Program-made: the position numbers and the translations under genes
The notes under the pieces: generated by a model
What the model was told of the DNA's origin: nothing
What the model saw: the letters and a program-made list of their open reading frames with translations, nothing else
Databases searched by the model: none
From: a virus
DNA: 38,347 nucleotides
Reading direction: 5' to 3' (one strand)
Virus record (IMG/VR): IMGVR_UViG_3300045988_153982
Location: 1-38,347 of that record
Part shown: positions 1 to 38,347 of the stretch, piece after piece
Numbering within the stretch: the stretch's first letter is position 1
Layout: every line of letters starts with the position of its first letter

Positions 1-119
1 AAAGCAAAAGAATTAGTTGAAGAAATAACAAAGTTTAAAGAATTTTATGACATAAAAACTGATGATGTCATAACTATAATTGATATGTATTTTGCTAATT
101 ATTTTAATATAGAATACAT
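1..119. repeat. Terminal direct repeat, exact copy of 38229..38347 (terminal redundancy or circular-assembly overlap)
   Basis: The first 119 nt and the last 119 nt of the window are identical as read. Confidence 0.95.
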
Positions 120-21242: not shown

Positions 21243-21365
21243 ATGATATTGATACATGTTAAAATTGATGAAAGCTTAAAAAAACAACTTGAAGAAGAAG
21301 CAAAAGCCAAAGGGCTTTCATTAAACGCTTACATTAGAATGCTTTTAATTGAAAGGAAAAAGTAA
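21243..21365 (+). CDS. Ribbon-helix-helix (CopG/Arc-like) small DNA-binding protein, 40 aa
   Basis: AAGGAGG RBS. MILIHVKIDESLKKQLEEEAKAKGLSLNAYIRMLLIERKK has beta-strand / helix / helix RHH architecture. Below the ORF-track cut-off. Confidence 0.5.
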   Translation: MILIHVKIDESLKKQLEEEAKAKGLSLNAYIRMLLIERKK

Positions 21366-21366
21366 A

Positions 21367-22794
21367 ATGACTTTAGAAGAAGTTAAGCAAGAATTAAGAG
21401 TATTTGATAAGTTTAAATTTTTTGAAGATGACCATCATTATGAATGTAATAGTAAAAGAGTTGGAATTAGTGTTACGAGATTAATTGAAGAATATAGTAA
21501 TCCATTTGACCAACAAGCAATTGCTGAAAAAGTGGCAATAAGAGATAATAAAAGTGTTAGTGAAGTTCTTGAAGAATGGGAATATAAAAACAAATTTGCT
21601 TGTGTGAAAGGTAGTACTTGCCACGAATATGCACAAAGTATCTGGAGTGGCGAAGAATATAATGAATTATTATTTGATGGCAGTATTGAATATTTAACTG
21701 CAGTAAATAAAATTCAAAGTCAAGCAATGAATTTTTGGAAAGATTTTAAAGATAAATTCATTCATATTCAAGATGAACAACTTGTTGGCAGCGAAGAATA
21801 TGATATTTGTTCGGCAGTAGACCATTTATTCCTTGATAAAGAAGGTAATGTTTGGTTAATAGACTACAAAACAAATAGTATTCTTAAAGGTTACAATGAT
21901 GATGAAAAAAATCGAAGATATACTAAAAAAATGCTTATTCCATTGCAAAATTTAAAAGATGATGCACTTCATCACTATTATTTACAATTAAGTATTTATA
22001 AATATTTAATTGAAAAATATACGAATATAAAAATTTATAAAACAATGATTGTCTATATGAGTGAAAATATTAAAAAATATGAACTTATTGAAACAACATA
22101 TTTAATGAAAGAAGTAGAATTAATATTAGAAAATAGGAGGGAAAGAAAAATGGGAAAATGTATTCCAATATTAATTATCGGGCATTCTGGGAGTGGTAAG
22201 AGTGCTAGCTTGAGAAATTTAAGCAAAGATGATTATTCTTTAGTAAATCCACTTGCAAAAAGATTACCTTTTAAAGGAGGACAAGCAGGGCTTGAAAGTT
22301 GTGATTATGAATTAATCAAAAAATTTATTCAAGAAACGCCAAAAAATATTATAGTAATAGATGATAGTAATTATTTGCTTACTATTGAAATGATGAAAAA
22401 AGCAAAAGAAACAGGTTATGGCAAGTTTACAGATATTGCTTTAAATTATTGGAAATTAATTGAATTTATTAAAAATCTTGATGGAGATAAAAGAGTTTAT
22501 TTAATGAGCCATGAAGAAATTGATGAATTTGGAAATGTTGGGGTTAAGACAGTTGGCAAAATGTTATCAAATCAATGTTGCGTTGAAGGACTTTACACAA
22601 TAGTCTTAAGAGCTATTAATGAAAATGGCAAGTTCCAATTTAGAACTAAAACGGCAGGCAATGATATTGTAAAATCACCTATGGGAATGTTTGAAGATGA
22701 ATTGATTGATAATGATTTAAAATTAGTAGATGATACTATTTGTGAATATTATGAAATAAAAAAAGAAAAAAAGAAAGGTGAAGAAAATAAATAA
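21367..22794 (+). CDS. Fusion protein: N-terminal RecB-family PD-(D/E)xK nuclease plus C-terminal P-loop ATPase (AAA_24/Sak4-like RecA-fold)
   Basis: Nuclease motifs: VDHLF (D), LIDYKT (D/ExK), QLSIY (QxxxY). ATPase motifs: GHSGSGKS Walker A, IIVIDDSNY Walker B. An in-frame AGGAGG-N9-ATG at 22135..22152 allows separate initiation of the ATPase part. Confidence 0.65.
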   Translation: MTLEEVKQELRVFDKFKFFEDDHHYECNSKRVGISVTRLIEEYSNPFDQQAIAEKVAIRDNKSVSEVLEEWEYKNKFACVKGSTCHEYAQSIWSGEEYNELLFDGSIEYLTAVNKIQSQAMNFWKDFKDKFIHIQDEQLVGSEEYDICSAVDHLFLDKEGNVWLIDYKTNSILKGYNDDEKNRRYTKKMLIPLQNLKDDALHHYYLQLSIYKYLIEKYTNIKIYKTMIVYMSENIKKYELIETTYLMKEVELILENRRERKMGKCIPILIIGHSGSGKSASLRNLSKDDYSLVNPLAKRLPFKGGQAGLESCDYELIKKFIQETPKNIIVIDDSNYLLTIEMMKKAKETGYGKFTDIALNYWKLIEFIKNLDGDKRVYLMSHEEIDEFGNVGVKTVGKMLSNQCCVEGLYTIVLRAINENGKFQFRTKTAGNDIVKSPMGMFEDELIDNDLKLVDDTICEYYEIKKEKKKGEENK

Positions 22795-29641: not shown

Positions 29642-31198
29642 GTGGCTAACATAGACAATCTAGTGTCTTTAGCAGATAGAACACAACAAGAACGCAACGA
29701 AATAGCCAGAAAGGGTGCAATTGCTAGTAATAAAGTACAAAAAGAGAAGAAAACAATGCGAAAAGAGTTAGAACTTTTATTAGAAGCCGAAGCAAAAAAT
29801 GGCAAGACCTATCAAGAGAACATAACACTTGCACTAATGGGTAAGGCAATAAAAGGCGACACAAAAGCTTATGAAATTATCAGGGATACAGCAGGACAAA
29901 ACCCCGATAAGATTAAAGATGAAGTTGAAAAAGTAGAACAGATAATTCAAATACCAGCAAAAGACATCGCAAAGTGTTTTGTTGATATAAACAGAAGTAT
30001 AGACGATAGAGAATATAGAGAATATTTTTTAGAGGGCGGCCGTGGTAGCACAAAGTCATCTTTCATAAGTGAAAAGGTAATAGAGTTATTAGAAAACAAC
30101 CCTAAAATGTGTTGTGTTGTATTAAGAAAAGTAAAAGACACTTTAAAAGATAGTGTGTTTGCACAATTAGAGTGGGCTATTGATACTTTGGCTGAAACAT
30201 ATCCAACTATAAAGAAAGATTATAAATTAACTAAAATCCCTATGGAAATAACAAAACTAAGCACAGGGCAAAAGATATTCTTTAGAGGTGCTGATGATTA
30301 TGGTAAAATTAAGTCATTAAAAACGCCAAAGGATATGTATGTAGGTATAACTTGGTATGAAGAGTTCGACCAGTTTGCTGGTATGTTAGAAGTTCGTAAA
30401 ATAAATCAGTCATTAATTCGTGGTGGCGATGATTATATACAATTTTATTCATACAATACACCACCTAGCAAACAACACTTTGTCAACATTGAAAAGAGAA
30501 TACCTAAGCCATCAAGGCTTGTTAATTTAAGTGATTATAGAGATGTTCCTAAAAAGTGGCTAGGGCAAGCATTTATTGATGAAGCTGAGTTCTTAAAAGA
30601 AATAAATGAAAAAGCATATGAAAATGAATATTTAGGAATAGAAACAGGAATTGGCGGAAATGTATTTGAAAACCTTGAAATAAGAGAAATAACTAACGAA
30701 GAGATAGAAACATATGATTATATTTATATGGGGCTTGACTTCGGATGGTACCCAGACCCTTTGGCTTGGACTAAAATGTGTTATAATCCAGCACAAGGAG
30801 CATTATATATCTTTGATGAGTTTTTAGTAAACAAAATGAGTAATGCTGATGTTTGGGATTATTTAGTTGAGAACAAAGGCGTTACTACTGATGACATGAT
30901 AATTGCAGATAGCGCTGAGCCAAAGTCAATAGGCGATTTTAAAAGTTATGGTGCATTAATAAAAGGTGCTGAAAAAGGACCTGAAAGTGTCAAGTATTCT
31001 ATGAAGTGGTTATCTAGTTTAGCAAAGATAGTTATAGACCCTGTGAGATGCCCTAAAACAATGCAAGAATTTAGCAATTATGAATATGAACAAGACAAAG
31101 ATGGTAATTGGATAAGTGGTTATCCAGATGAAAACAACCATACAATAGATAGTGTAAGATATGCTCTTAACAAGATTTGGAAAAAGAAAGGAGAATAA
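29642..31198 (+). CDS. Terminase large subunit (PBSX/XtmB-like) with about 125-aa N-terminal extension, GTG start
   Basis: FLEGGRGSTKSS Walker A. C-terminal nuclease region with IADSAEP and YPDENNHTIDSVRY. GAGGTGG RBS 4 nt before GTG. Confidence 0.85.
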   Translation: MANIDNLVSLADRTQQERNEIARKGAIASNKVQKEKKTMRKELELLLEAEAKNGKTYQENITLALMGKAIKGDTKAYEIIRDTAGQNPDKIKDEVEKVEQIIQIPAKDIAKCFVDINRSIDDREYREYFLEGGRGSTKSSFISEKVIELLENNPKMCCVVLRKVKDTLKDSVFAQLEWAIDTLAETYPTIKKDYKLTKIPMEITKLSTGQKIFFRGADDYGKIKSLKTPKDMYVGITWYEEFDQFAGMLEVRKINQSLIRGGDDYIQFYSYNTPPSKQHFVNIEKRIPKPSRLVNLSDYRDVPKKWLGQAFIDEAEFLKEINEKAYENEYLGIETGIGGNVFENLEIREITNEEIETYDYIYMGLDFGWYPDPLAWTKMCYNPAQGALYIFDEFLVNKMSNADVWDYLVENKGVTTDDMIIADSAEPKSIGDFKSYGALIKGAEKGPESVKYSMKWLSSLAKIVIDPVRCPKTMQEFSNYEYEQDKDGNWISGYPDENNHTIDSVRYALNKIWKKKGE

Positions 31199-31200
31199 TT

Positions 31201-31707
31201 ATGGAAATAGTATATAAGAAAGTAAATGATTTAATACCATATGAAAACAACCCTAGAATTAATGATGAAGCAGTTGAATATGTTAAAAATTCAATAAAAG
31301 AATTTGGATTTAAAGTACCTATTGTAATTGATAAAAATAATGTAATTGTAGCAGGGCATACTAGACTAAAAGCAAGTTTAGAATTAGGTTATAAAGAGGT
31401 GCCTTGTATAATTGCTGATGATTTATCAGAAGAACAAGTAAAAGCATTTAGATTAGCAGATAATAAAATTAGTGAAAAATCACAATGGGATTTTAGCAAA
31501 TTAGATGAAGAATTAGATAGCATTTTAGATATTGATATGAGCATGTTTGATTTTATTGAAAATGAAATAGACTGGGATAATGTTGATGATTTAACTGAAG
31601 AAACATACGATAAACCTGAACATAATATGCTAGAATGCCCTAATTGTCATCATATTGATAGAGATATACATTTTAAAAAAGTGAATGGAGTAGAAGATGA
31701 AAATTAA
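31201..31707 (+). CDS. ParB/Srx-fold N-terminal-domain protein (DpdB-like candidate)
   Basis: AAGGAG RBS. ...VPIVIDKNNVIVAGHTRLKASLELGYKEVPCIIAD resembles the ParB box II (GERRxRA) region. Confidence 0.6.
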   Translation: MEIVYKKVNDLIPYENNPRINDEAVEYVKNSIKEFGFKVPIVIDKNNVIVAGHTRLKASLELGYKEVPCIIADDLSEEQVKAFRLADNKISEKSQWDFSKLDEELDSILDIDMSMFDFIENEIDWDNVDDLTEETYDKPEHNMLECPNCHHIDRDIHFKKVNGVEDEN

Positions 31708-31719
31708 AACTTCATTCAA

Positions 31720-32490
31720 ATGAAGATATTTTTAAGTGCAATAGAAAACGCTCAAGCAAGTGGCAAAGGCGGTAAACCTGTGGCGCAAATAATGATTGAA
31801 AAAGGAATAAAATTGCAATATAATTTAATGTCATATTTTTATATAAAAAACAAAACAACATTAGCAGAAATGATAAGAGATAATTCTGAATGTATATTGA
31901 TAGACAGTGGTGCTCATAGTTTTCAAAAAGGAAAGAAAGTAGATTGGGTTGATTATACAAAAAAATATGCGCAATTTATAAAAGAATTTGATAAGCCAAA
32001 TGTTATAGGTTACTTTGAAATGGATGTAGATAATATTATTGGGTATGACAAAGTATTAGAATTAAGAAAAATTCTTGAAAGTGTATCAAGCAAAATTATA
32101 CCAGTATGGCACAAAAATAGAGGGATAGAAGAATTTAAAAAGATGTGCCATGATTATCAAAATAAAGTAATTGCAATAACAGGTTTTAAAAATGAAGATA
32201 TAAAAGATGAGCAATATTTAATGTTTTTAAAGTATGCCAAAAAGTATAATTGCAAAGTGCATTGCTTAGGAATGACAAGAAAAAAAGTATTGGATAAAGT
32301 ACCGTTTGATTATGTGGATAGTAGTAGTTGGGTACAATCAACAGTATTTGGTAGAATAGATGGAAAAGGCAAGGTAACGAAAAATTTTAGTAAAACAAAT
32401 AGAGAAATGGTGTTTATACAAAATTATTTAGAAGCTAAAAAAATGCAAGAATATTACTATCAAAAATGGAAAAAAATATGCAAAGATTAA
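31720..32490 (+). CDS. tRNA-guanine-transglycosylase-like protein (DpdA-family candidate, 7-deazaguanine DNA transglycosylase)
   Basis: ILIDSGAHSFQKG parallels TGT [IL]LTDSGG[YF]Q. HCLGMTRKKVLDKVPFDYVDSSSW parallels TGT LMGVG.P...MFDCV.PTR / archaeal FDSAxY. No Zn-binding C-terminal domain. Weak RBS, and the start codon lies in a cttcat-tcaa-atgaag hairpin. Confidence 0.65.
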   Translation: MKIFLSAIENAQASGKGGKPVAQIMIEKGIKLQYNLMSYFYIKNKTTLAEMIRDNSECILIDSGAHSFQKGKKVDWVDYTKKYAQFIKEFDKPNVIGYFEMDVDNIIGYDKVLELRKILESVSSKIIPVWHKNRGIEEFKKMCHDYQNKVIAITGFKNEDIKDEQYLMFLKYAKKYNCKVHCLGMTRKKVLDKVPFDYVDSSSWVQSTVFGRIDGKGKVTKNFSKTNREMVFIQNYLEAKKMQEYYYQKWKKICKD

Positions 32491-32535
32491 GTAGTTAACC
32501 AAAACCTACTTTAAAAAAATTAAGGAGATGATAAA

Positions 32536-33195
32536 ATGAATATTTTATTAGGGATAATAGGAATAGTTTTATGTTTTGGAATAGAAGTGTTAATTGAAAA
32601 AATATTTAAAAAAGAAGGATTATATGCATGGATAAGTGTGACATTAGTTACAGCAAATATATTAGTTGCTAAAAATATTGATATATTAGGTTTGCAAGCA
32701 ACATTAGGAAACATATTGTTTGCAAGTACATTTTTAGCGACAGACATATTAAGTGAAAAATATGGTACTAAAGAAAGCAAAAAAGCAGTGAATATTGGTA
32801 TTGTATCAGTTATCTTATTCACAGTAGCAACACAGTTTAGTTTATTATTTAAATCAAATGAAATTGACTTAGTAAATGACAGTTTGAAAAATTTATTTTC
32901 TTTAAATTTGAGAATAAGTGTTTCTAGCATATTAATGTGTTATTTAAGTAATATGATAGATATAGTTTTATTTGAGAAAATCAAGAAGAAGATACCTAAC
33001 AAGTTATGGTTAAGAAATAACATAGCGACAATAACAAGCAATTGTTTAGAAAATTATTTATTTACAATATTTGCATTCATAGGTATTTATGATTTAGGAA
33101 CAATATTCTCTATTGCTACAACTACAACAATATTAGAAATTATAATAGCAATATGTGATACACCATTCTTATATTTAAGCAAAAAATTAAAATAA
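32536..33195 (+). CDS. YhhQ/VUT-family (DUF165) queuosine-precursor transporter-like membrane protein
   Basis: AAGGAG RBS. Six predicted TM helices. NILFASTFLATDILSEKYG matches E. coli YhhQ FPFIFLATDLTVRIFG. SNCLENYLFTIFAF matches GNVSDTLAFFFIAF. Confidence 0.7.
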   Translation: MNILLGIIGIVLCFGIEVLIEKIFKKEGLYAWISVTLVTANILVAKNIDILGLQATLGNILFASTFLATDILSEKYGTKESKKAVNIGIVSVILFTVATQFSLLFKSNEIDLVNDSLKNLFSLNLRISVSSILMCYLSNMIDIVLFEKIKKKIPNKLWLRNNIATITSNCLENYLFTIFAFIGIYDLGTIFSIATTTTILEIIIAICDTPFLYLSKKLK

Positions 33196-33242: not shown

Positions 33243-34643
33243 ATGCTACAAAATATATTTTTGTGGATTATGGAACATATCTTTAAAATTAAAACACAGA
33301 CTACACCAGATGTGGTTAGTCAAAACAATGATTATCAAAGGGAATACGAGCGAATAGACCAAATTAACTTTACTTCAATATTTGCTAACAAAATATCTAA
33401 TTATGTGGCAAACGATAGCAATATTGATGTTACTGGAACGAGTGAAAGAGCAAAGTATTTCAATGAAATTGCACAAAGTATGAAAAGGAAATTAAAAAAG
33501 ATTTCGTCAACAATTTTAGGAGTTGGAGGTATTGCAATAGTTCCTTATGTTAAAAAAGGAAAAATATATTACAATATTGTTCCACAAAATAGGGTTTTAA
33601 TTGATGAAAAGACTGGTGACTTAATCACTGGGGCGACTATTCTTGCAGAAAGCAAGGTTGTAAGTGATTTAGTTAGCCAAAAAATTTATTACAGGTGGAC
33701 TAATTATCAAATAAGAAATAACAACTTGATTATTCAACAAAAGTTTACTGATGAAAATGGAAATGAGTTAAAAGATACACCTGAATTTTGGGCTGGAGTT
33801 CAAACGATATTAAGCATTAGCAATGTTGACAGAGTTCCGTTTGCTTTTGTAATAAGCCCTATAAATAATAGAAAACCAAGTGATGACTACGGAGTGCCTA
33901 TCACTTATGGTTGTGACGAAACAATAACAGAAATAAAAGAGTGCTTAAAGCAAATAGTTAGAGAATTTAAAGTAAAAGAAACATTCATTGGCGTTGACTA
34001 CTCAATGTTTAAAAAAGACAAAAATGGACATTGGGAATTGCCGGAGGATGGACTTTACAAAAAGTTCAATAGTGATAAAGATGACTTTTGGGAAGTATTT
34101 AGCCCAGAAATAAGACAAAGTTCTTATTATGAAAGATTAAGGGAATTGTATTCAAGACTTGAAAAAGAAATTGGAACAAGTGCAGGAATACTAACTGAAA
34201 TAGAAACAGCGAATGCGACTGCAACTGCTATTAAAAGGGCATTGTATGATACTTTAACAATAGTAGATGATTTAAGAGATAACCTAGAACAAGGCTTTGA
34301 TGATTTCTTTAAGGCCTGCGATGTTCTAACAAATGCTTATAATGTTGTTCCAAGCGGTACTTTTGAATTATCTTACGATTGGGATTTATCTTTACTTGAA
34401 GAACCGCAAGAAACATATAACCAATATGTACAAGGTTTAAGTCAAGGCGTTGTTAAGAAAGAAGAACTAAGGCAATTCATATTTAGCGATGAAACACTAG
34501 AAGAAAGCAAAAAGGCTATTGAAGAGATAGAAGAAGAAACACCTAGTGTTGATAAGTTGCTTGATGATGAAGAAGATAATGCTGATAATAACAAAGATAA
34601 GCAGGATGATAAGAAAAACAAAGAAAATGAAGAGAAAGAGTAA
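33243..34643 (+). CDS. Portal protein (SPP1 gp6-like)
   Basis: AAGGAGAG RBS. 466 aa with a strongly acidic C-terminus. Located after the terminase region. Confidence 0.6.
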   Translation: MLQNIFLWIMEHIFKIKTQTTPDVVSQNNDYQREYERIDQINFTSIFANKISNYVANDSNIDVTGTSERAKYFNEIAQSMKRKLKKISSTILGVGGIAIVPYVKKGKIYYNIVPQNRVLIDEKTGDLITGATILAESKVVSDLVSQKIYYRWTNYQIRNNNLIIQQKFTDENGNELKDTPEFWAGVQTILSISNVDRVPFAFVISPINNRKPSDDYGVPITYGCDETITEIKECLKQIVREFKVKETFIGVDYSMFKKDKNGHWELPEDGLYKKFNSDKDDFWEVFSPEIRQSSYYERLRELYSRLEKEIGTSAGILTEIETANATATAIKRALYDTLTIVDDLRDNLEQGFDDFFKACDVLTNAYNVVPSGTFELSYDWDLSLLEEPQETYNQYVQGLSQGVVKKEELRQFIFSDETLEESKKAIEEIEEETPSVDKLLDDEEDNADNNKDKQDDKKNKENEEKE

Positions 34644-34688: not shown

Positions 34689-34717
34689 TTGACAAAGTAA
34701 ATATAATATAGTATAAT
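34689..34717 (+). promoter_or_regulatory. Consensus promoter TTGACA-N17-TATAAT driving the SSB/small-protein block
   Basis: ttgaca at 34689..34694, 17-nt spacer, tataat at 34712..34717. Confidence 0.7.
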
Positions 34718-34748: not shown

Positions 34749-35099
34749 ATGTTAAATCAATTAACATTAGTTGGTCGTTTAGTTTCAGACCTTCAAATAA
34801 ATGAAACTGAAAATGGAAGAAAGGTTTGCACTATTATATTAGCAGTATCACGAAGTTATAAAAATGAACAAGGTATTTATGAAACTGATTTTATACCAGT
34901 TACGCTATGGACCAGCATTGCTGGAAATACAATAAATTATTTTAAAAAAGGTAATTTAGTAGGAGTTAGAGGAAAATTAGAAAGTTCAATAACTACTGAT
35001 GATAACCATACAATAGAAGAGAATAAAAGATTAAAGTTAAGAGTTGTTGCAGAAAAAGTAACTTTCTTGTCTAATAAATCTAATAAAGAAGAAGAATAA
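34749..35099 (+). CDS. ssb: Single-stranded DNA-binding protein (OB-fold) lacking the canonical DDDIPF tail
   Basis: MLNQLTLVGRLVSDLQ...DFIPVTLWTSIAGNTINYFKKGNLVGVRGKLES aligns with B. subtilis SSB MLNRVVLVGRLTKDPEL...[33 protein letters not shown]. Ends ...NKSNKEEE. Confidence 0.85.
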   Translation: MLNQLTLVGRLVSDLQINETENGRKVCTIILAVSRSYKNEQGIYETDFIPVTLWTSIAGNTINYFKKGNLVGVRGKLESSITTDDNHTIEENKRLKLRVVAEKVTFLSNKSNKEEE

Positions 35100-35182
35100 A
35101 ATCTTTTTCTCAATGTAGCCATTGACTGTTGCAAGCCAGTATTAAAAATGTAGAGCATAGAAAATATGAAAAGGAGAATAAA

Positions 35183-35335
35183 ATGAAAGAAAACAAAACA
35201 AGAAAAACACATACATTTGATAAGAAAGTGTATGCTGAATTTCAAAAATATGCTAGTAGTATAGGCAGAAGTGTATCTTCATTAATAGAACAATTTATGA
35301 GAGAAACACTTAAAGAAATGAAAAAGGAGAAATAA
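35183..35335 (+). CDS. Putative RHH/Arc-like small DNA-binding protein (start trimmed to ATG after AAGGAG)
   Basis: ORF-track 35129..35335. KTHTFDKKVYAEFQKYASSIGRSVSSLIEQFMRE has strand-helix-helix architecture. Confidence 0.45.
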   Translation: MKENKTRKTHTFDKKVYAEFQKYASSIGRSVSSLIEQFMRETLKEMKKEK

Positions 35336-35340
35336 GAATA

Positions 35341-35657
35341 ATGGATAAAGAAAATATATTATATTATCAATCCAACATAAAAACATCAAGAAATGAAGAT
35401 AGTGTATATGCTATGAAGTATGCTAGTCAGCAAATGTTAATAGATAAATTAGAACAAAACTGCAAAAAGCAAAAAAAGTTATTGATAAGTTGGAATTAGA
35501 GAATAAACAACTAAAAGATAAACTATCTAAAATAGAAACATTAATAATAAACCATAATTGTGATACTGGTGATATTTATTATAAGTATAATAGCAAATTT
35601 TTAAAAAGTGAATTAAAACAAAGAATATTAGAGATAGTATATGAGGTGTCAGAATGA
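35341..35657 (+). pseudogene. Coiled-coil protein gene interrupted by a 1-nt frameshift in an A7 homopolymer (35471..35477)
   Basis: Frame 0 from ATG 35341 stops at 35497. The -1 frame continues from the A-run as VIDKLELENKQLKDKLSKIETLIINHNCDTGDIYYKYNSKFLKSELKQRILEIVYEVSE and ends with ATGA coupling to the next gene. Each piece is below the ORF-track cut-off. Confidence 0.4.
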
Positions 35658-35995
35658 GTAAAATTTGTGGATATAGTTGTGAACATAATAAAAGTGGTGT
35701 TTGTCAAATATCAGTATGTAGTAAAAAATCAAATATGAAAGATAAAACGGAAACAGAGTTATTTAGAGAAACTTGGTATGAGATAAGTCAAATACGACAA
35801 TTACAACAAGAAAATAAACAATTAAAAGATAATTGGAATAAGTTAAAAGAATATATAAAAGAAACTAAGTTAAAGGAATTTGAAAAATCATATGGTAAAA
35901 GATATGGAAAAACATTTACACAAGCAGAAATAATTGTGTGTAATATGATTTTAAATAAAATGCTAGAAATAGAAGGAAGTGATAGTGATGAATGA
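35654..35995 (+). CDS. Zn-ribbon plus coiled-coil protein
   Basis: N-terminal CGYSCEHNKSGVCQISVC cysteine cluster followed by heptad repeats. Confidence 0.45.
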   Translation: MSKICGYSCEHNKSGVCQISVCSKKSNMKDKTETELFRETWYEISQIRQLQQENKQLKDNWNKLKEYIKETKLKEFEKSYGKRYGKTFTQAEIIVCNMILNKMLEIEGSDSDE

Positions 35996-36182
35996 AGATT
36001 TAATAACAATGACTGTTAATCAAAAAACAAATGCTATAGATTTATATAATTTTATACAAAGATGTCTTCCGTTTGATACAGTAATAGAATTATACAAATT
36101 AATTCAATACAAATTAATTAATTTAGATGATGAACCTTATAATTATTGTAATTTGGCGAAGAAAGTAGAGAGTGATGAGTAA
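35979..36182 (+). CDS. Hypothetical protein (67 aa)
   Basis: ORF. Start uncertain (alternative ATG at 35988). Confidence 0.35.
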   Translation: MIVMNEDLITMTVNQKTNAIDLYNFIQRCLPFDTVIELYKLIQYKLINLDDEPYNYCNLAKKVESDE

Positions 36183-36431
36183 ATGACAGCTAAAGAAATG
36201 TTTGAAAATTTAGGTTTTTATTATGAAGAAAGAGCATATGGCTTTAGTTATGATGCTTATGATAGTGAAAGCGGTTGGCTAAGGTTTGTTGCCTTTGATA
36301 TTAAAAATAAAACTGTTGAAATACATAGAGTTAATATTTATTGGAATTATGAAACTAAATATACAAAACATACTCGTTTAGACAAAGCAATAAATAAACA
36401 AATAGAAGAATTAAGGTGGAATAAATGCTAA
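36183..36431 (+). CDS. Hypothetical protein (82 aa)
   Basis: TAAATG coupling. Confidence 0.4.
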   Translation: MTAKEMFENLGFYYEERAYGFSYDAYDSESGWLRFVAFDIKNKTVEIHRVNIYWNYETKYTKHTRLDKAINKQIEELRWNKC

Positions 36432-36715
36432 CATTACCGATTAAGAAAAAATGGTTTGACATGATAAAGTCAGGCGAAAAGAAAGAAGAATATAGAGAAA
36501 TTAAACCTTATTATGATAGCAGATTTTTGAAATCAATAGAAGATAAAAGACCTCATACAAATATTATATTATTTAGAAATGGTTATGGTAAAAATAAGCC
36601 TACTTTAAAATGTGAAGTGATTATTTCAAAAGGTTATGGCAAAGAAGAATGGGGAGCAGAGCCTAACAAAATGTATTATGTATTAAGAATATTAGATATG
36701 GAGGAGATTAAATAA
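36425..36715 (+). CDS. ASCH-domain protein (PUA-like)
   Basis: LPIKKKWFDMIKSGEKKEEYREIKPY fits the ASCH N-terminal signature (...I..G.K..E.R). Confidence 0.55.
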   Translation: MLTLPIKKKWFDMIKSGEKKEEYREIKPYYDSRFLKSIEDKRPHTNIILFRNGYGKNKPTLKCEVIISKGYGKEEWGAEPNKMYYVLRILDMEEIK

Positions 36716-37351
36716 ATGAGTATAGAAGAATTAGCATTTAAAGATAGGAAAATTTTAGCAAATTTAAACGCAATAGATTTATTAGATATAATAGAGTTTT
36801 TACAAGAAGATAGAAATCAATGGATTAATCAGTTTACTAAAACTCATAATGAAGGTGTTGAAATTCAAAAAGAAAATCAAGAATTAAAAGAAGCATTAGA
36901 AGCAAAATCATATTGTAAATATGCTAATAAATGTGATGAATTTGATGATTGCTCTAAAGAAGAGTATGAAATTATGGCAATTGAAAATATAAAATTAAGT
37001 ATTGAAAATCAAGAATTAAAATCGCAATTATCTGGCACTACCCATTGTTTTGATGAAGAAGAACATAGAGTATTAAAGAAACAACTTGAAGAAATAAACA
37101 AATTTGTATGTAAATGTGGTTTTGCGAATATAGAACAAGTTATGCTTAATTATTGTGGCTTGTTAACTCAACAAAAAGAGTTTATAAAGTATTTAGAAAA
37201 TGAAATTAAAGAAATAGAAAAAACAATTGAATTATTGAGTGATACAGGAAGTTGCAGAATACCAAATTTGCAATATAAAAAACATATTTTAGAAGAGACT
37301 TTACAAAAATATAAAGAAATAACTCAGACAAAAAATAATAATTCTGTCTGA
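36716..37351 (+). CDS. Coiled-coil protein with Cys motifs (CKYANKCDEFDDC, CKCGF)
   Basis: ATGA coupling. 211 aa. Confidence 0.45.
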   Translation: MSIEELAFKDRKILANLNAIDLLDIIEFLQEDRNQWINQFTKTHNEGVEIQKENQELKEALEAKSYCKYANKCDEFDDCSKEEYEIMAIENIKLSIENQELKSQLSGTTHCFDEEEHRVLKKQLEEINKFVCKCGFANIEQVMLNYCGLLTQQKEFIKYLENEIKEIEKTIELLSDTGSCRIPNLQYKKHILEETLQKYKEITQTKNNNSV

Positions 37352-37372
37352 GTCAAAAGAAAGAGTGACAAA

Positions 37373-37813
37373 ATGGCGGATACGAATAAAAGAGTAAAAA
37401 CTATAAATTATACTTGTAATGGAAATTGTTCTGGATGTGGAAATTGCTGTGGAGATATTTTACATCTATCTAAAAATGAAATAAAGAGAATAGCTAAGTA
37501 TGTAAAACAAAATAAAATTAAAGCTACGCCAAGAAATATTCTAGTAGCTTATGATAATACTTGCCCATTTAGAGATAATGCAAACAAAAAATGCAAAATC
37601 TATGAAGTAAGACCAGATATTTGTCGAGTATTCAAGTGTGATAAAACCCCAGAAGAAGTGTATAGAAACAGAGAATTTAATAATGGGAAAAAACTACCAA
37701 GAAGTATGCGAAATTTATTTTACAATGATAGTTCAGGTGCAAAATGGTTATTTGAGAACTTTGGTAGATTAATTTATGATAAAAATGATAAAGCAATAGG
37801 AGTATCAGAATGA
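37373..37813 (+). CDS. YkgJ-family (PF03692, CxxCxxCC) putative Zn/Fe-S protein
   Basis: NGNCSGCGNCCGD plus CPF...CKIYEVRPDICRVFKC fit the YkgJ/UPF0153 cysteine pattern. Confidence 0.65.
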   Translation: MADTNKRVKTINYTCNGNCSGCGNCCGDILHLSKNEIKRIAKYVKQNKIKATPRNILVAYDNTCPFRDNANKKCKIYEVRPDICRVFKCDKTPEEVYRNREFNNGKKLPRSMRNLFYNDSSGAKWLFENFGRLIYDKNDKAIGVSE

Positions 37814-38109
37814 AACTAATTAAAAATTGGCAAGAATTATCAAAAGTACTAGCAAATGGTAAATACAAAATTATAGTGTGTGATTGTTGTGGTTGGATAG
37901 TTCCAATTTGTGATGTACCTGATGAAGATAATTTTACTTGTAATTGTCCTGAAATGACTACAAAAGAATATTTTGAAAAACATATATACTTATCAACTCA
38001 TACTTTTTATGGTAAACGTTACAAACATTCTACTGAATTATTACAAAAATATGGTTTTGATATAGAAATAGATAATTGGGATAAAGAAATAATAGGAGAT
38101 GATAAATAA
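37810..38109 (+). CDS. Cys-rich small protein (CDCCGW...CD...CNCPE)
   Basis: ATGA coupling. Possible zinc-binding. Confidence 0.4.
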   Translation: MKLIKNWQELSKVLANGKYKIIVCDCCGWIVPICDVPDEDNFTCNCPEMTTKEYFEKHIYLSTHTFYGKRYKHSTELLQKYGFDIEIDNWDKEIIGDDK

Positions 38110-38347
38110 TGATAAAAGTAACATTTGAAAAAGATTATAGCAAAGATTTTAATATTAAATTTTATGGATTAATACAACTTAATATTGTTTATGATAATGG
38201 AAAAGTAGTATCAATCAAAGAAAAAAAGAAAGCAAAAGAATTAGTTGAAGAAATAACAAAGTTTAAAGAATTTTATGACATAAAAACTGATGATGTCATA
38301 ACTATAATTGATATGTATTTTGCTAATTATTTTAATATAGAATACAT
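38109..38347 (+). CDS. Hypothetical protein CDS running off the window end. Completes at 138 via the terminal repeat (about 86 aa in total).
   Basis: ATGA overlap with the upstream stop. Frame is continuous into the repeat and on to TAG at 136..138. Confidence 0.5.
   Translation, partial: MIKVTFEKDYSKDFNIKFYGLIQLNIVYDNGKVVSIKEKKKAKELVEEITKFKEFYDIKTDDVITIIDMYFANYFNIEY
38229..38347. repeat. Second copy of the terminal direct repeat (equals 1..119)
   Basis: Identical sequence to the window start. Confidence 0.95.

What the first reader, a model, noticed from the sequence alone, without database searches (positions are those of the whole stretch)
31201..33195. Compact ParB-like / TGT-like (DpdA) / YhhQ-like cassette between terminase and portal: candidate 7-deazaguanine DNA modification fed by precursor import
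Three consecutive + strand genes interrupt the otherwise canonical terminase-to-portal junction. (1) A 168-aa ParB/Srx-fold protein. (2) A 256-aa protein with the tRNA-guanine transglycosylase active-site motifs (ILIDSGAHSFQ; HCLGMTRKK...FDYVDSSSW) but no Zn-binding C-domain, as in DNA-acting DpdA enzymes. (3) A six-TM protein with the YhhQ/VUT signatures (FLATDILSEKYG; NxLENYLFTIFAF) of preQ0/preQ1 importers. In the bacterial Dpd system, the TGT-like DpdA works with the ParB-like ATPase DpdB to insert preQ0 into DNA. Phage DpdA homologues are usually accompanied by preQ0 biosynthesis genes (folE, queD, queE, queC), none of which is present here. The importer gene suggests the phage scavenges the base from the host or medium and hypermodifies its own DNA (anti-restriction) with a minimal three-gene set. 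Placement among the packaging genes would time modification with packaging. The DpdA start has no SD and sits inside a perfect hairpin (cttcat-tcaa-atgaag, 31712..31727), hinting at translational control.
Basis: partly seen in the sequence, partly recalled or inferred. Interest (0 to 1): 0.8.

Follow-up and report, generated by a model that had tools for sequence, protein, structure and literature searches.

The report
Phage DNA-modification cassette fed by import
A gut phage carries three linked genes (a small ParB-like protein, a DpdA-type DNA base-swapping enzyme and a queuosine-precursor importer) that most likely let it replace guanines in its own DNA with a scavenged 7-deazaguanine base; this is an import-fed version of a known phage anti-restriction system.

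Summary

The window is a complete 38.2-kb phage genome with no preQ0 synthesis gene.

In 216 related viral loci, a ParB-like gene sits directly upstream of dpdA in 187 of 193 informative cases, usually with overlapping stop and start codons. In 212 of 214 informative loci a 7-deazaguanine supply gene lies within about 5 kb: YhhQ, QueT or QueC/D/E plus FolE. Mycobacteriophage Rosebush has the ParB–DpdA–QueCDE–FolE–TerL form, and 28% of its guanines are dPreQ0.

The core interpretation therefore holds, as an import-fed variant of a known system. Three details do not:
- The ParB protein is not a DpdB orthologue.
- The start-codon hairpin is insignificant and not conserved; translational coupling explains the missing Shine-Dalgarno sequence.
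- DpdA-only phages are common, so synthesis genes do not "usually" accompany dpdA.

The imported base and actual DNA modification remain untested.

The parts
31201..31707 (+). ParB-like accessory protein (168 aa): a ParB/Srx N-terminal domain with NPR, GHTR (GxxR) and DN motifs, then an acidic linker and a C-terminal CPNCHH knuckle.
   Evidence: Pfam ParB_N 1.4e-8, above cut-off. phrog_620 8.8e-56; also matches the N-terminal part of ParB-methyltransferase fusions (phrog_498 8.5e-44; PADLOC MTase_II 3.2e-27). Best solved relative by sequence is the B. subtilis Spo0J CTPase domain 6sdk, 2.6e-5. N17, G52 and N88 are invariant, and R55 about 90% conserved, among partners of dpdA. Found directly upstream of dpdA in 187 of 193 related loci.
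31705..31722 (+). Junction between the ParB stop (TAA 31705-31707) and the DpdA start (ATG 31720). There is no Shine-Dalgarno sequence; translation is probably coupled to ParB.
   Evidence: Sequence. In relatives the commonest junction is a 4-nt or 1-nt stop/start overlap. The 6-bp hairpin at 31710-31725 is not significant and not conserved.
31720..32490 (+). DpdA-type DNA-guanine transglycosylase (256 aa). A TIM barrel with invariant D62 (DSGA), D102 (ELDID) and D200 (VDSSSW), and no Zn site.
32536..33195 (+). QPTR/YhhQ-family queuosine-precursor transporter (219 aa, multi-pass membrane protein) with its own AAGGAG Shine-Dalgarno sequence.
   Evidence: Vut_1 3.7e-35. TIGR00697 scores 150.6 bits against a cut-off of 50.95 and covers the full profile. 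Hydropathy scan. Shine-Dalgarno sequence. Within about 5 kb of dpdA, relatives carry YhhQ, QueT or QueC/D/E plus FolE.

Best explanation
The cassette is a salvage-fed 7-deazaguanine DNA modification module of a Clostridia-infecting gut phage.

Proposed sequence of events:
1. The three genes appear to be transcribed together with the terminase and portal genes.
2. The QPTR/YhhQ transporter inserts in the host membrane and imports a free 7-deazaguanine base. This is preQ0 or preQ1, less likely queuine.
3. The DpdA-type transglycosylase exchanges guanines in replicated phage DNA for that base. The mechanism would be the TGT-type double displacement, with D200 as nucleophile and D62 as general acid/base.
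4. The small ParB-like protein is translationally coupled to DpdA and acts as its DNA-directed accessory. It may be nucleotide-dependent and functionally analogous to DpdB, but it is not orthologous to DpdB.
5. The modified DNA resists host restriction enzymes.

Shown here: the family assignments, the fold, the conserved catalytic residues, the conserved gene linkage, the alternative supply genes in relatives, and the absence of synthesis genes.

Inferred, not shown: DNA (rather than tRNA or protein) as substrate, the identity of the base, the role of ParB, and protection from restriction.
For: - Homology to phage DpdAs that are genetically or chemically tied to dPreQ0 in DNA. CAjan: BLASTP 4e-13, hhalign 99.5%. 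Rosebush gp2: hhalign 97.5%. The wet-lab data are in PMC6884629.
- Three invariant acidic positions in the order and spacing of DpdA D95/D130/D256.
- The transporter passes the curated 'queuosine precursor transporter' model.
- Census of 216 viral loci in three DpdA clades: ParB directly upstream in 47/50, 76/78 and 64/65. A supply gene is present within about 5 kb in 212 of 214 informative loci (YhhQ only 85, QueT 10, QueC/D/E/FolE 117, of which 18 also carry YhhQ).
- Rosebush has the same ParB–DpdA–QueC–QueD–QueE–FolE–TerL synteny, and 28% of its G is dPreQ0.
- Orion has DpdA only, and neither phage nor host makes preQ0. Its DNA is unmodified. This explains why a supply gene is needed.
- Gut Bacillota mostly lack QueDECF and live on salvaged precursors (PMC11130926). 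Relatives of the window fall in Clostridia MAGs.
- No terminator lies between TerL and the portal gene.
Against: - No chemistry was done, so DNA modification is inferred.
- The protein misses Pfam TGT, NCBIfam and PDB sequence searches. Foldseek against the PDB returned only generic TIM barrels.
- Deleting yhhQ in CAjan had no effect on modification, although CAjan makes its own preQ0.
- QPTR substrate specificity cannot be read from sequence. The protein is far below the E. coli-type equivalog cut-off (49 against 252 bits).
- Phage DpdAs of the 9g/CAjan type have no adjacent ParB gene, so a ParB requirement is unproven.
- Host assignment rests on MAG binning of phage-sized contigs.
Confidence: 0.65

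Rival explanations
1. The module acts on tRNA. The phage imports preQ1 or queuine and the TGT-like enzyme raises queuosine levels in host tRNA, tuning decoding of the NAU/NAC codons of an A+T-rich genome.
For: - Phages that carry Que genes without DpdA have been proposed to boost host Q (PMC6884629).
- Gut Bacillota depend on salvaged Q precursors.
- The genome is 27.6% G+C.
Against: - Sequence homology is to phage DpdAs whose deletion abolishes DNA modification, not to bacterial TGT. There is no PF01702 hit.
- The best structural match is DNA-acting DpdA.
- The protein lacks the Zn subdomain of the tRNA-acting TGTs.
- Its obligate neighbour is a ParBc domain, a domain otherwise attached to DNA-modifying enzymes.
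Confidence: 0.08
2. DpdA and YhhQ form the modification system, but the ParB-like gene is an unrelated neighbour. It would be a generic phage ParB-like nuclease or packaging accessory that tends to sit next to terminase genes.
For: - phrog_620 ParB-like proteins are widespread in phages without DpdA.
- The cassette is always near TerL.
- phiFN37 carries three ParB-like genes in one region.
- CAjan has no ParB gene next to its dpdA.
Against: - ParB is directly upstream of dpdA in 187 of 193 loci across three clades that have diverged to about 35% DpdA identity, mostly with overlapping stop/start codons.
- It stays with dpdA whether the cassette lies upstream or downstream of TerL.
- The same pairing occurs in Rosebush, phiFN37 and Roos, which infect three different host phyla.
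- Distances between ParB partners correlate with DpdA distances (Mantel r = 0.58), though without a control gene.
Confidence: 0.12
3. The TGT-like enzyme conjugates a 7-deazaguanine base to a protein rather than to DNA, as Cap10 does to the CD-NTase in CBASS.
Against: - No QueC-like Cap9 or CD-NTase gene is present in the genome.
- Direct sequence homology is to phage DpdAs.
- The synteny matches Rosebush, whose DNA carries dPreQ0.
Confidence: 0.03
4. The cassette is a carried-along or decaying module with no effect on this phage's DNA, as in phage Orion (DpdA present, DNA unmodified).
For: - Orion DNA is unmodified, and phage 7-11 has only 0.02% of its G modified.
- C. difficile phage CDKM15 keeps only a 78-aa DpdA remnant next to an intact YhhQ.
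Against: - All three ORFs are intact, with conserved catalytic and motif residues.
- The protein family is large and well conserved: 1632 clusters at 50% identity.
- Almost every relative keeps a supply gene.
Confidence: 0.07

Closest known systems
Mycobacterium phage Rosebush gp1-gp7 (ParB-like, DpdA, QueC, QueD, QueE, FolE, TerL); its DNA carries dPreQ0 at 28% of G (PMC6884629)
   Same: - A ParB-like gene overlaps the start of a Zn-less phage DpdA.
- A 7-deazaguanine supply module follows, next to the large terminase.
- The DpdA is homologous at profile level (97.5%).
- The ParB is recognised by the same HMM (3.6e-14).
   Different: - Rosebush makes preQ0 itself with four enzymes; the window has only an importer.
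- The proteins are very divergent: pairwise BLASTP E is about 0.01.
- Rosebush gp2 is 385 aa and gp1 is 263 aa.
- In Rosebush the cassette is upstream of TerL, not between TerL and the portal gene.
Escherichia phage CAjan 7-deazaguanine cluster (DpdA, FolE, QueD, YhhQ, QueC, QueE) (PMC7544227)
   Same: - It encodes both a DpdA (24% identical; E 4e-13) and a YhhQ-family transporter.
- Its DpdA lacks the Zn motif.
- Deleting dpdA abolishes dPreQ0.
   Different: - CAjan has the full preQ0 pathway, so its yhhQ is dispensable.
- There is no adjacent ParB gene.
- Its YhhQ (159 aa) shows no detectable pairwise similarity to the window's.
Bacterial Dpd system: DpdA with DpdB, Salmonella Montevideo (PMC10164549)
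   Same: - A TGT-fold DNA transglycosylase is paired with a ParB-superfamily protein.
- The three active-site aspartates are conserved.
   Different: - Bacterial DpdA is 413 aa with four insertions and a CXCX2CX22H Zn site.
- DpdB is a DGQQR-motif ATPase with a C-terminal helical domain, forming a dimer of about 80-95 kDa.
- The window's partner is a 168-aa canonical ParB N-domain with a GHTR motif.
- The Dpd system also contains DpdC and restriction genes.
Fusobacterium phage phiFN37 (OR492271) and Faecalibacterium phage Roos (PP479939): cultured phages with the same cassette
   Same: - phiFN37: ParB, DpdA, DUF6884, YhhQ.
- Roos: orf76 ParB, orf77, orf78 DpdA, orf79 YhhQ.
- No Que genes lie in the retrieved flanks.
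   Different: - DpdA identity is only about 30% (phiFN37).
- One extra gene sits inside each cassette.
- In phiFN37 the cassette is about 7 kb from TerL.
- The Roos genes are annotated 'hypothetical'.
- No publication analysing either cassette was found.
ParBc-domain fusions and neighbours of phage DNA-modifying enzymes (methyltransferases; CmoX) (PMC12783734)
   Same: The window's ParB matches the N-terminal domain of ParB-methyltransferase fusions (phrog_498 8.5e-44; PADLOC MTase_II 3.2e-27). In both settings a ParBc domain accompanies a post-replicative DNA-modifying enzyme.
   Different: Here it is a separate polypeptide paired with a transglycosylase rather than a methyltransferase. Its function is unknown in both settings.

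Membership tests
Phage DpdA (DNA-guanine transglycosylase, 9g/CAjan/Rosebush type) | Detectable homology to experimentally validated phage DpdA | tested here: met
   CAjan: BLASTP 4e-13 over 191 aa, hhalign 99.5% (E 1.8e-22). Rosebush gp2: hhalign 97.5% (E 8e-12). phrog_887: 4.3e-39.
Phage DpdA (DNA-guanine transglycosylase, 9g/CAjan/Rosebush type) | TGT-type TIM-barrel fold | tested here: met
Phage DpdA (DNA-guanine transglycosylase, 9g/CAjan/Rosebush type) | Three invariant active-site aspartates (general acid/base, base recognition, nucleophile) | tested here: met
   D62, D102 and D200 are invariant in 46 diverse homologues, in the order and spacing of bacterial DpdA D95/D130/D256. The residue equivalence is inferred from motifs (DSGAF, ELD, VDSSSW), not from a superposition.
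Phage DpdA (DNA-guanine transglycosylase, 9g/CAjan/Rosebush type) | Genomic linkage to 7-deazaguanine synthesis or salvage genes | tested here: met
   212 of 214 informative related loci carry YhhQ, QueT or QueC/D/E/FolE within about 5 kb of dpdA.
Phage DpdA (DNA-guanine transglycosylase, 9g/CAjan/Rosebush type) | Exchanges guanine in DNA for a 7-deazaguanine base | not testable with these tools
   Needs LC-MS/MS of virion DNA or an in vitro exchange assay.
TGT / bacterial DpdA (Pfam PF01702 and curated models) | Match to the curated TGT or DpdA profile | tested here: not met
   No PF01702 hit, no NCBIfam hit and no PADLOC hit. No PDB sequence hit, even with a 46-sequence profile.
TGT / bacterial DpdA (Pfam PF01702 and curated models) | Structural Zn site CXCX2CX22H | tested here: not met
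   Cysteines are at 58, 143, 178, 182 and 254. There is no C.C..C motif and no conserved Cys column. Bacterial DpdA keeps the site. CAjan and Rosebush DpdAs also lack it.
DpdB (ParB-fold ATPase partner of bacterial DpdA) | ParB/Srx-fold N-terminal domain encoded next to dpdA | tested here: met
   ParB_N is above cut-off. The gene is directly upstream of dpdA in 187 of 193 related loci.
DpdB (ParB-fold ATPase partner of bacterial DpdA) | DGQQR (DGQHR-type) motif and DndB/SspE-like C-terminal helical domain; monomer of about 40-47 kDa | tested here: not met
   The protein is 168 aa. Its motif is GHTR, aligning to GERR of Spo0J. All significant NCBIfam matches are to ParB-type models. DpdB features are taken from PMC10164549.
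DpdB (ParB-fold ATPase partner of bacterial DpdA) | NTP hydrolysis required for DpdA activity | not testable with these tools
   The NPR, GxxR and DN positions are conserved, which is compatible with nucleotide binding.
QPTR / YhhQ (COG1738) queuosine-precursor transporters | Full-length match to curated family models | tested here: met
   TIGR00697: 150.6 bits against a cut-off of 50.95, profile positions 2-197 of 201. Vut_1: 122 bits against 27.2.
QPTR / YhhQ (COG1738) queuosine-precursor transporters | E. coli-type preQ0/preQ1 equivalog (NF008406) | tested here: not met
   49.2 bits against a cut-off of 252. Substrate specificity differs within the family (PMC11130926).
QPTR / YhhQ (COG1738) queuosine-precursor transporters | Transports preQ0, preQ1 or queuine | not testable with these tools
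   Needs complementation of an E. coli queD QPTR double mutant.
Chromosome/plasmid partition ParB | N-terminal domain plus HTH parS-binding domain and C-terminal dimerisation domain; partner ParA | tested here: not met
   Only the N-domain is present. TIGR00180 scores 43.4 bits against a cut-off of 58.45. No ParA gene was seen in the genome.

The most novel reading that the evidence does not exclude
The modification state of this phage's DNA is set entirely by 7-deazaguanine bases scavenged from the gut community (preQ0, preQ1 or even queuine). Import through a phage-encoded QPTR/YhhQ or QueT would be essential, and the small ParBc protein would be an obligatory nucleotide-dependent loader for a whole clade of Zn-less DpdAs. 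That would make ParBc a general accessory of phage DNA-modifying enzymes. It would also tie phage resistance to restriction to cross-feeding of a micronutrient. In the boldest version queuine itself is inserted, giving dQ, a base not detected in any phage DNA analysed in PMC6884629.
Probability: 0.3. Interest if true: 0.7.

Novelty: new variant of a known kind. Interest (0 to 1): 0.45.

Why it matters
Phage 7-deazaguanine DNA modification blocks restriction enzymes. So far it has been demonstrated for phages that make the base themselves, or at trace level in DpdA-only phages.

This cassette, and the roughly 95 related loci with an importer but no synthesis genes, suggest that many gut phages outsource the base to the microbiome's queuosine-precursor pool. 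That idea was raised in 2019 but has not been tested.

The analysis also identifies a nearly invariant ParBc partner for a very large DpdA clade (1632 clusters at 50% identity). This gives a concrete handle on an open question: what ParBc domains do next to phage DNA-modifying enzymes.

Two cultured phages, Roos and phiFN37, carry the cassette, so the experiments are feasible.

Tried and rejected
- Megablast of the 5-kb region against GenBank phages found nothing.
- PDB sequence searches with the DpdA-like protein, with a 46-sequence profile and with CAjan DpdA found no TGT or DpdA.
The ParB fold therefore rests on sequence profiles only.
- I looked for ParB–DpdA fusions as Rosetta-stone evidence. 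The only case is one truncated ORF (L045). A 424-aa BFVD protein annotated 'ParB/Sulfiredoxin' aligns weakly to the DpdA model (rank 37) but could not be retrieved.
- Apparent DpdA–QueT and DpdA–YhhQ fused ORFs (P0128, P0198) may be gene-call artefacts.
- The hairpin idea was rejected.
- The Mantel correlations were not given weight because no control gene was run.
- The 2024 MMBR review on 7-deazaguanines is not in the library. I cannot exclude that it already discusses ParB partners or import-only phages.
Full report
**1. The observation**

- 31201-31707: 168 aa, starting at the ATG that follows an AAAGGAG Shine-Dalgarno sequence. This ORF overlaps the terminase stop codon.
- 31720-32490: 256 aa.
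- 32536-33195: 219 aa, with an AAGGAG Shine-Dalgarno sequence.

They lie between the large terminase (29642-31198; Terminase_3 plus Terminase_3C) and the portal gene (33243-34643; phrog_533). No terminator-like site lies between TerL and the portal gene. Promoter-like sites are no more frequent than in shuffled sequence.

The window carries a 119-bp terminal direct repeat. It is therefore a complete, circularly assembled genome of about 38.2 kb, with 27.6% G+C and all genes on one strand.

**2. Family assignments**

*Protein 1 (ParB-like).* It passes Pfam ParB_N (35.1 bits against 26.3) and hits phrog_620 at 8.8e-56. It matches equally well the N-terminal domain of ParB-methyltransferase fusions (phrog_498 8.5e-44; PADLOC MTase_II 3.2e-27). 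Its best solved relative by sequence is the CTP-binding N-domain of B. subtilis Spo0J. In that alignment GHTR lines up with GERR.

*Protein 3 (transporter).* It passes Vut_1 and the NCBIfam equivalog 'queuosine precursor transporter' (150.6 bits against 50.95) over the full model length. It does not pass the E. coli-type preQ0/preQ1 model (49 bits against 252).

*Protein 2 (DpdA-like).* This was the uncertain one. It has no Pfam TGT, NCBIfam, PADLOC or PDB sequence hit, even with a 46-sequence profile. Several other lines of evidence place it:
- It hits phrog_887 'queuine tRNA-ribosyltransferase' at 4e-39.
- It aligns to the DpdA of phage CAjan (BLASTP 4e-13; hhalign 99.5%) and of mycobacteriophage Rosebush (hhalign 97.5%).
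- Deleting CAjan dpdA abolishes dPreQ0, and Rosebush DNA carries dPreQ0 at 28% of G (PMC6884629).
- An AlphaFold model built on 46 diverse homologues is confident (pLDDT 95.7, pTM 0.92).
- Foldseek against the PDB did not make this distinction. Foldseek against BFVD returned phage 'queuine tRNA-ribosyltransferases', including Vibrio phage nt-1.
- D62 (DSGA), D102 (ELDID) and D200 (VDSSSW) are invariant in the family. They follow the order of the bacterial DpdA general acid/base D95, base-recognising D130 and nucleophile D256 (PMC10164549). This equivalence is inferred from motifs.
- There is no CXCX2C Zn motif. That sets the protein apart from bacterial DpdA and the TGTs but matches the CAjan and Rosebush DpdAs.

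The family is large: 1632 cluster representatives at 50% identity with E of 1e-3 or better.

**3. Genomic context in relatives**

This is the strongest evidence. I fetched 58 viral loci with DpdA at 46-83% identity to the window, and 160 more around two distant subclades.

*ParB.* A ParB-like gene lies directly upstream of dpdA in 47/50, 76/78 and 64/65 loci that have enough upstream sequence. The commonest junction is a 4-nt or 1-nt stop/start overlap.

*Supply genes within about 5 kb.* In the window's own clade:
- YhhQ in 43 loci.
- QueT, the other known queuosine-precursor transporter family (Pfam QueT 1e-26 to 1e-39), in 10 loci.
- A full QueF–QueC–QueD–QueE–FolE set in one locus (L044).
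- Nothing in one locus.

In the second clade all 79 informative loci carry QueC/D/E/FolE, and 18 of them also carry YhhQ. In the third clade 37 carry the pathway and 42 carry YhhQ. Overall, 212 of 214 informative loci pair this DpdA with a source of a 7-deazaguanine base.

*Cultured phages.*
- Rosebush has exactly the ParB–DpdA–QueC–QueD–QueE–FolE–TerL arrangement.
- Fusobacterium phage phiFN37 has ParB–DpdA–DUF6884–YhhQ.
- Faecalibacterium phage Roos has ParB–x–DpdA–YhhQ, all annotated as hypothetical.

*Position.* The cassette keeps its internal order while its location changes. TerL is downstream of it in 84 loci and upstream only in the window's four closest relatives.

**4. Absence of synthesis genes**

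The genome is complete. No ORF scores above noise with QueC, QueD, QueE, FolE, QueF or QueT HMMs (all below 9 bits). Pfam and PHROGs scans of all 66 non-nested + strand ORFs of at least 55 aa found none of these families and no methyltransferase.

**5. Most likely mechanism**

The transporter imports a free 7-deazaguanine base. DpdA exchanges it for guanine in replicated phage DNA by the TGT-type double-displacement mechanism. The co-translated ParB-like protein assists on DNA. Two observations from the literature make a phage-borne supply gene sensible:
- Phage Orion has DpdA only, and neither the phage nor its host makes preQ0. Its DNA is unmodified.
- Gut Bacillota largely lack QueDECF and depend on salvage (PMC11130926).

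Relatives of the window are binned with Clostridia MAGs (Acutalibacteraceae, Lachnospiraceae, Anaerobutyricum). This is weak host evidence.

The identity of the base is open. QPTR members differ in substrate (preQ0/preQ1 in E. coli, queuine in Chlamydia). The one close relative with a synthesis set includes QueF, which makes preQ1.

**6. The ParB partner**

It is not a DpdB orthologue. DpdB has a DGQQR motif and an SspE-like helical C-domain and forms a dimer of about 80-95 kDa. The window's protein is a 168-aa canonical ParB N-domain. N17 (NPR), G52 with R55 (GxxR) and N88 (DN) are conserved across 158 distinct partners, and a C-terminal CPxC knuckle is present in most.

The analogy to DpdB is reasonable: a ParB-fold NTPase that bacterial DpdA needs. 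It has been suggested before for mycobacteriophage CRB2 (PMC6392294). ParBc domains also accompany other phage DNA-modifying enzymes, with unknown function (PMC12783734). Whether this DpdA clade needs ParB is untested. CAjan has no ParB gene adjacent to dpdA.

**7. Claims that fail**

- The hairpin at the DpdA start is at 31710-31725. It folds no better than shuffled sequence (z = -0.75) and is absent from relatives. The missing Shine-Dalgarno sequence is better explained by translational coupling to ParB.
- 'Usually accompanied by synthesis genes' is not what PMC6884629 reports. DpdA-only phages were the largest group.
- The position between terminase and portal is a rare rearrangement of a cassette that normally precedes TerL.

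**8. Novelty**

Already known:
- Phage DpdA systems, phage-encoded YhhQ and the idea of precursor uptake (PMC6884629).
- yhhQ within dpd clusters (PMC5699537).
- ParB next to DpdA in mycobacteriophages.

I found no paper that analyses an import-only cassette, the YhhQ/QueT/de novo alternation or the near-universal ParB partner. The 2024 MMBR review could not be read.

I rate the finding as a new variant of a known kind, of moderate interest.

Noticed in passing
window 1-119 and 38229-38347: The first and last 119 bases are an exact direct repeat. The window is therefore a complete, circularly assembled phage genome of about 38,228 bp.
   Followed up: partly
window 34689-34717: A perfect sigma-70 consensus (TTGACA, 17-nt spacer, TATAAT; 12 of 12 positions) lies just after the portal gene and before an SSB gene (34749-35099). 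A block of about 3.4 kb of small genes (34749-38109) separates the portal gene from the minor head protein at the start of the window. The same split occurs in relative L003.
   Followed up: no
window 29642-29960 (TerL residues 1-107): The large terminase has an N-terminal extension of about 107 aa that matches a separate PHROG of unknown function (phrog_2412, 2.9e-15). No separate small-terminase gene was recognised. The extension may be a fused TerS-like region.
   Followed up: no
L044 5774-9537: One close relative (DpdA about 55% identical) has QueF–QueC–x–QueD–QueE–FolE in place of YhhQ. Its FolE is fused to an N-terminal region with a weak phosphoribosyltransferase match. QueF implies preQ1 rather than preQ0.
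   Followed up: partly
L023/L029 5785-6204; L050 5731-6198; L055/L056 5839-6324; also L041, L045, L054: Ten loci of the window's clade carry a QueT-family transporter (Pfam QueT 1e-26 to 1e-39) in the position where the window has YhhQ.
   Followed up: yes
L001 8805-9239, and 13 other loci (e.g. L161, L177, L200, L087): A DUF6884 (PF21818, YaaA-like) gene recurs immediately after dpdA in 14 loci, with either YhhQ or the QueC/D/E set. It is a candidate optional fourth component.
   Followed up: partly
L024 3367-4899; L039 4581-6086: In two loci a short-chain dehydrogenase and a protein of about 279 aa with no family match are inserted between dpdA and yhhQ. They might further tailor the base.
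   Followed up: no
L073 4947-6505, and about 10 similar loci of clade B: Two dpdA paralogues in tandem follow a single ParB gene and precede the QueC/D/E/FolE set.
   Followed up: no
L236 (Clostridium phage CDKM15) 4717-5588: Only a 78-aa C-terminal DpdA remnant, containing the VDSSSW motif, survives next to an intact YhhQ gene. No ParB gene lies upstream. This looks like a decaying cassette.
   Followed up: partly
L237 (Faecalibacterium phage Roos) 3031-5627: orf76 (ParB, 9e-32), orf78 (DpdA, 4e-26) and orf79 (YhhQ, 1e-60) form the same cassette in a cultured gut phage. All are annotated 'hypothetical protein'.
   Followed up: partly
L002 (Bacillus phage BCD7) 5878-8151: The BCD7 DpdA is 757 aa. 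The DpdA barrel is N-terminal, and the C-terminal extension of about 500 aa has no Pfam match. The gene sits next to FolE, QueC, QueE and QueD, without an adjacent ParB gene.
   Followed up: no
L045 4803-5654; P0128, P0192, P0198: Several odd fused ORFs turned up. One joins ParB residues 1 to about 67 to DpdA. Others are DpdA–QueT and DpdA–partial-YhhQ products, with a shared out-of-frame-looking linker in P0192 and P0198. They may be deletions, frameshifts or gene-call artefacts.
   Followed up: no
window 21349-22794: A single 481-aa ORF combines an exonuclease-like N-terminal part (phrog_298) with a Sak4-like ssDNA-annealing C-terminal part (phrog_2872). The two are apparently fused into one recombination protein.
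   Followed up: no
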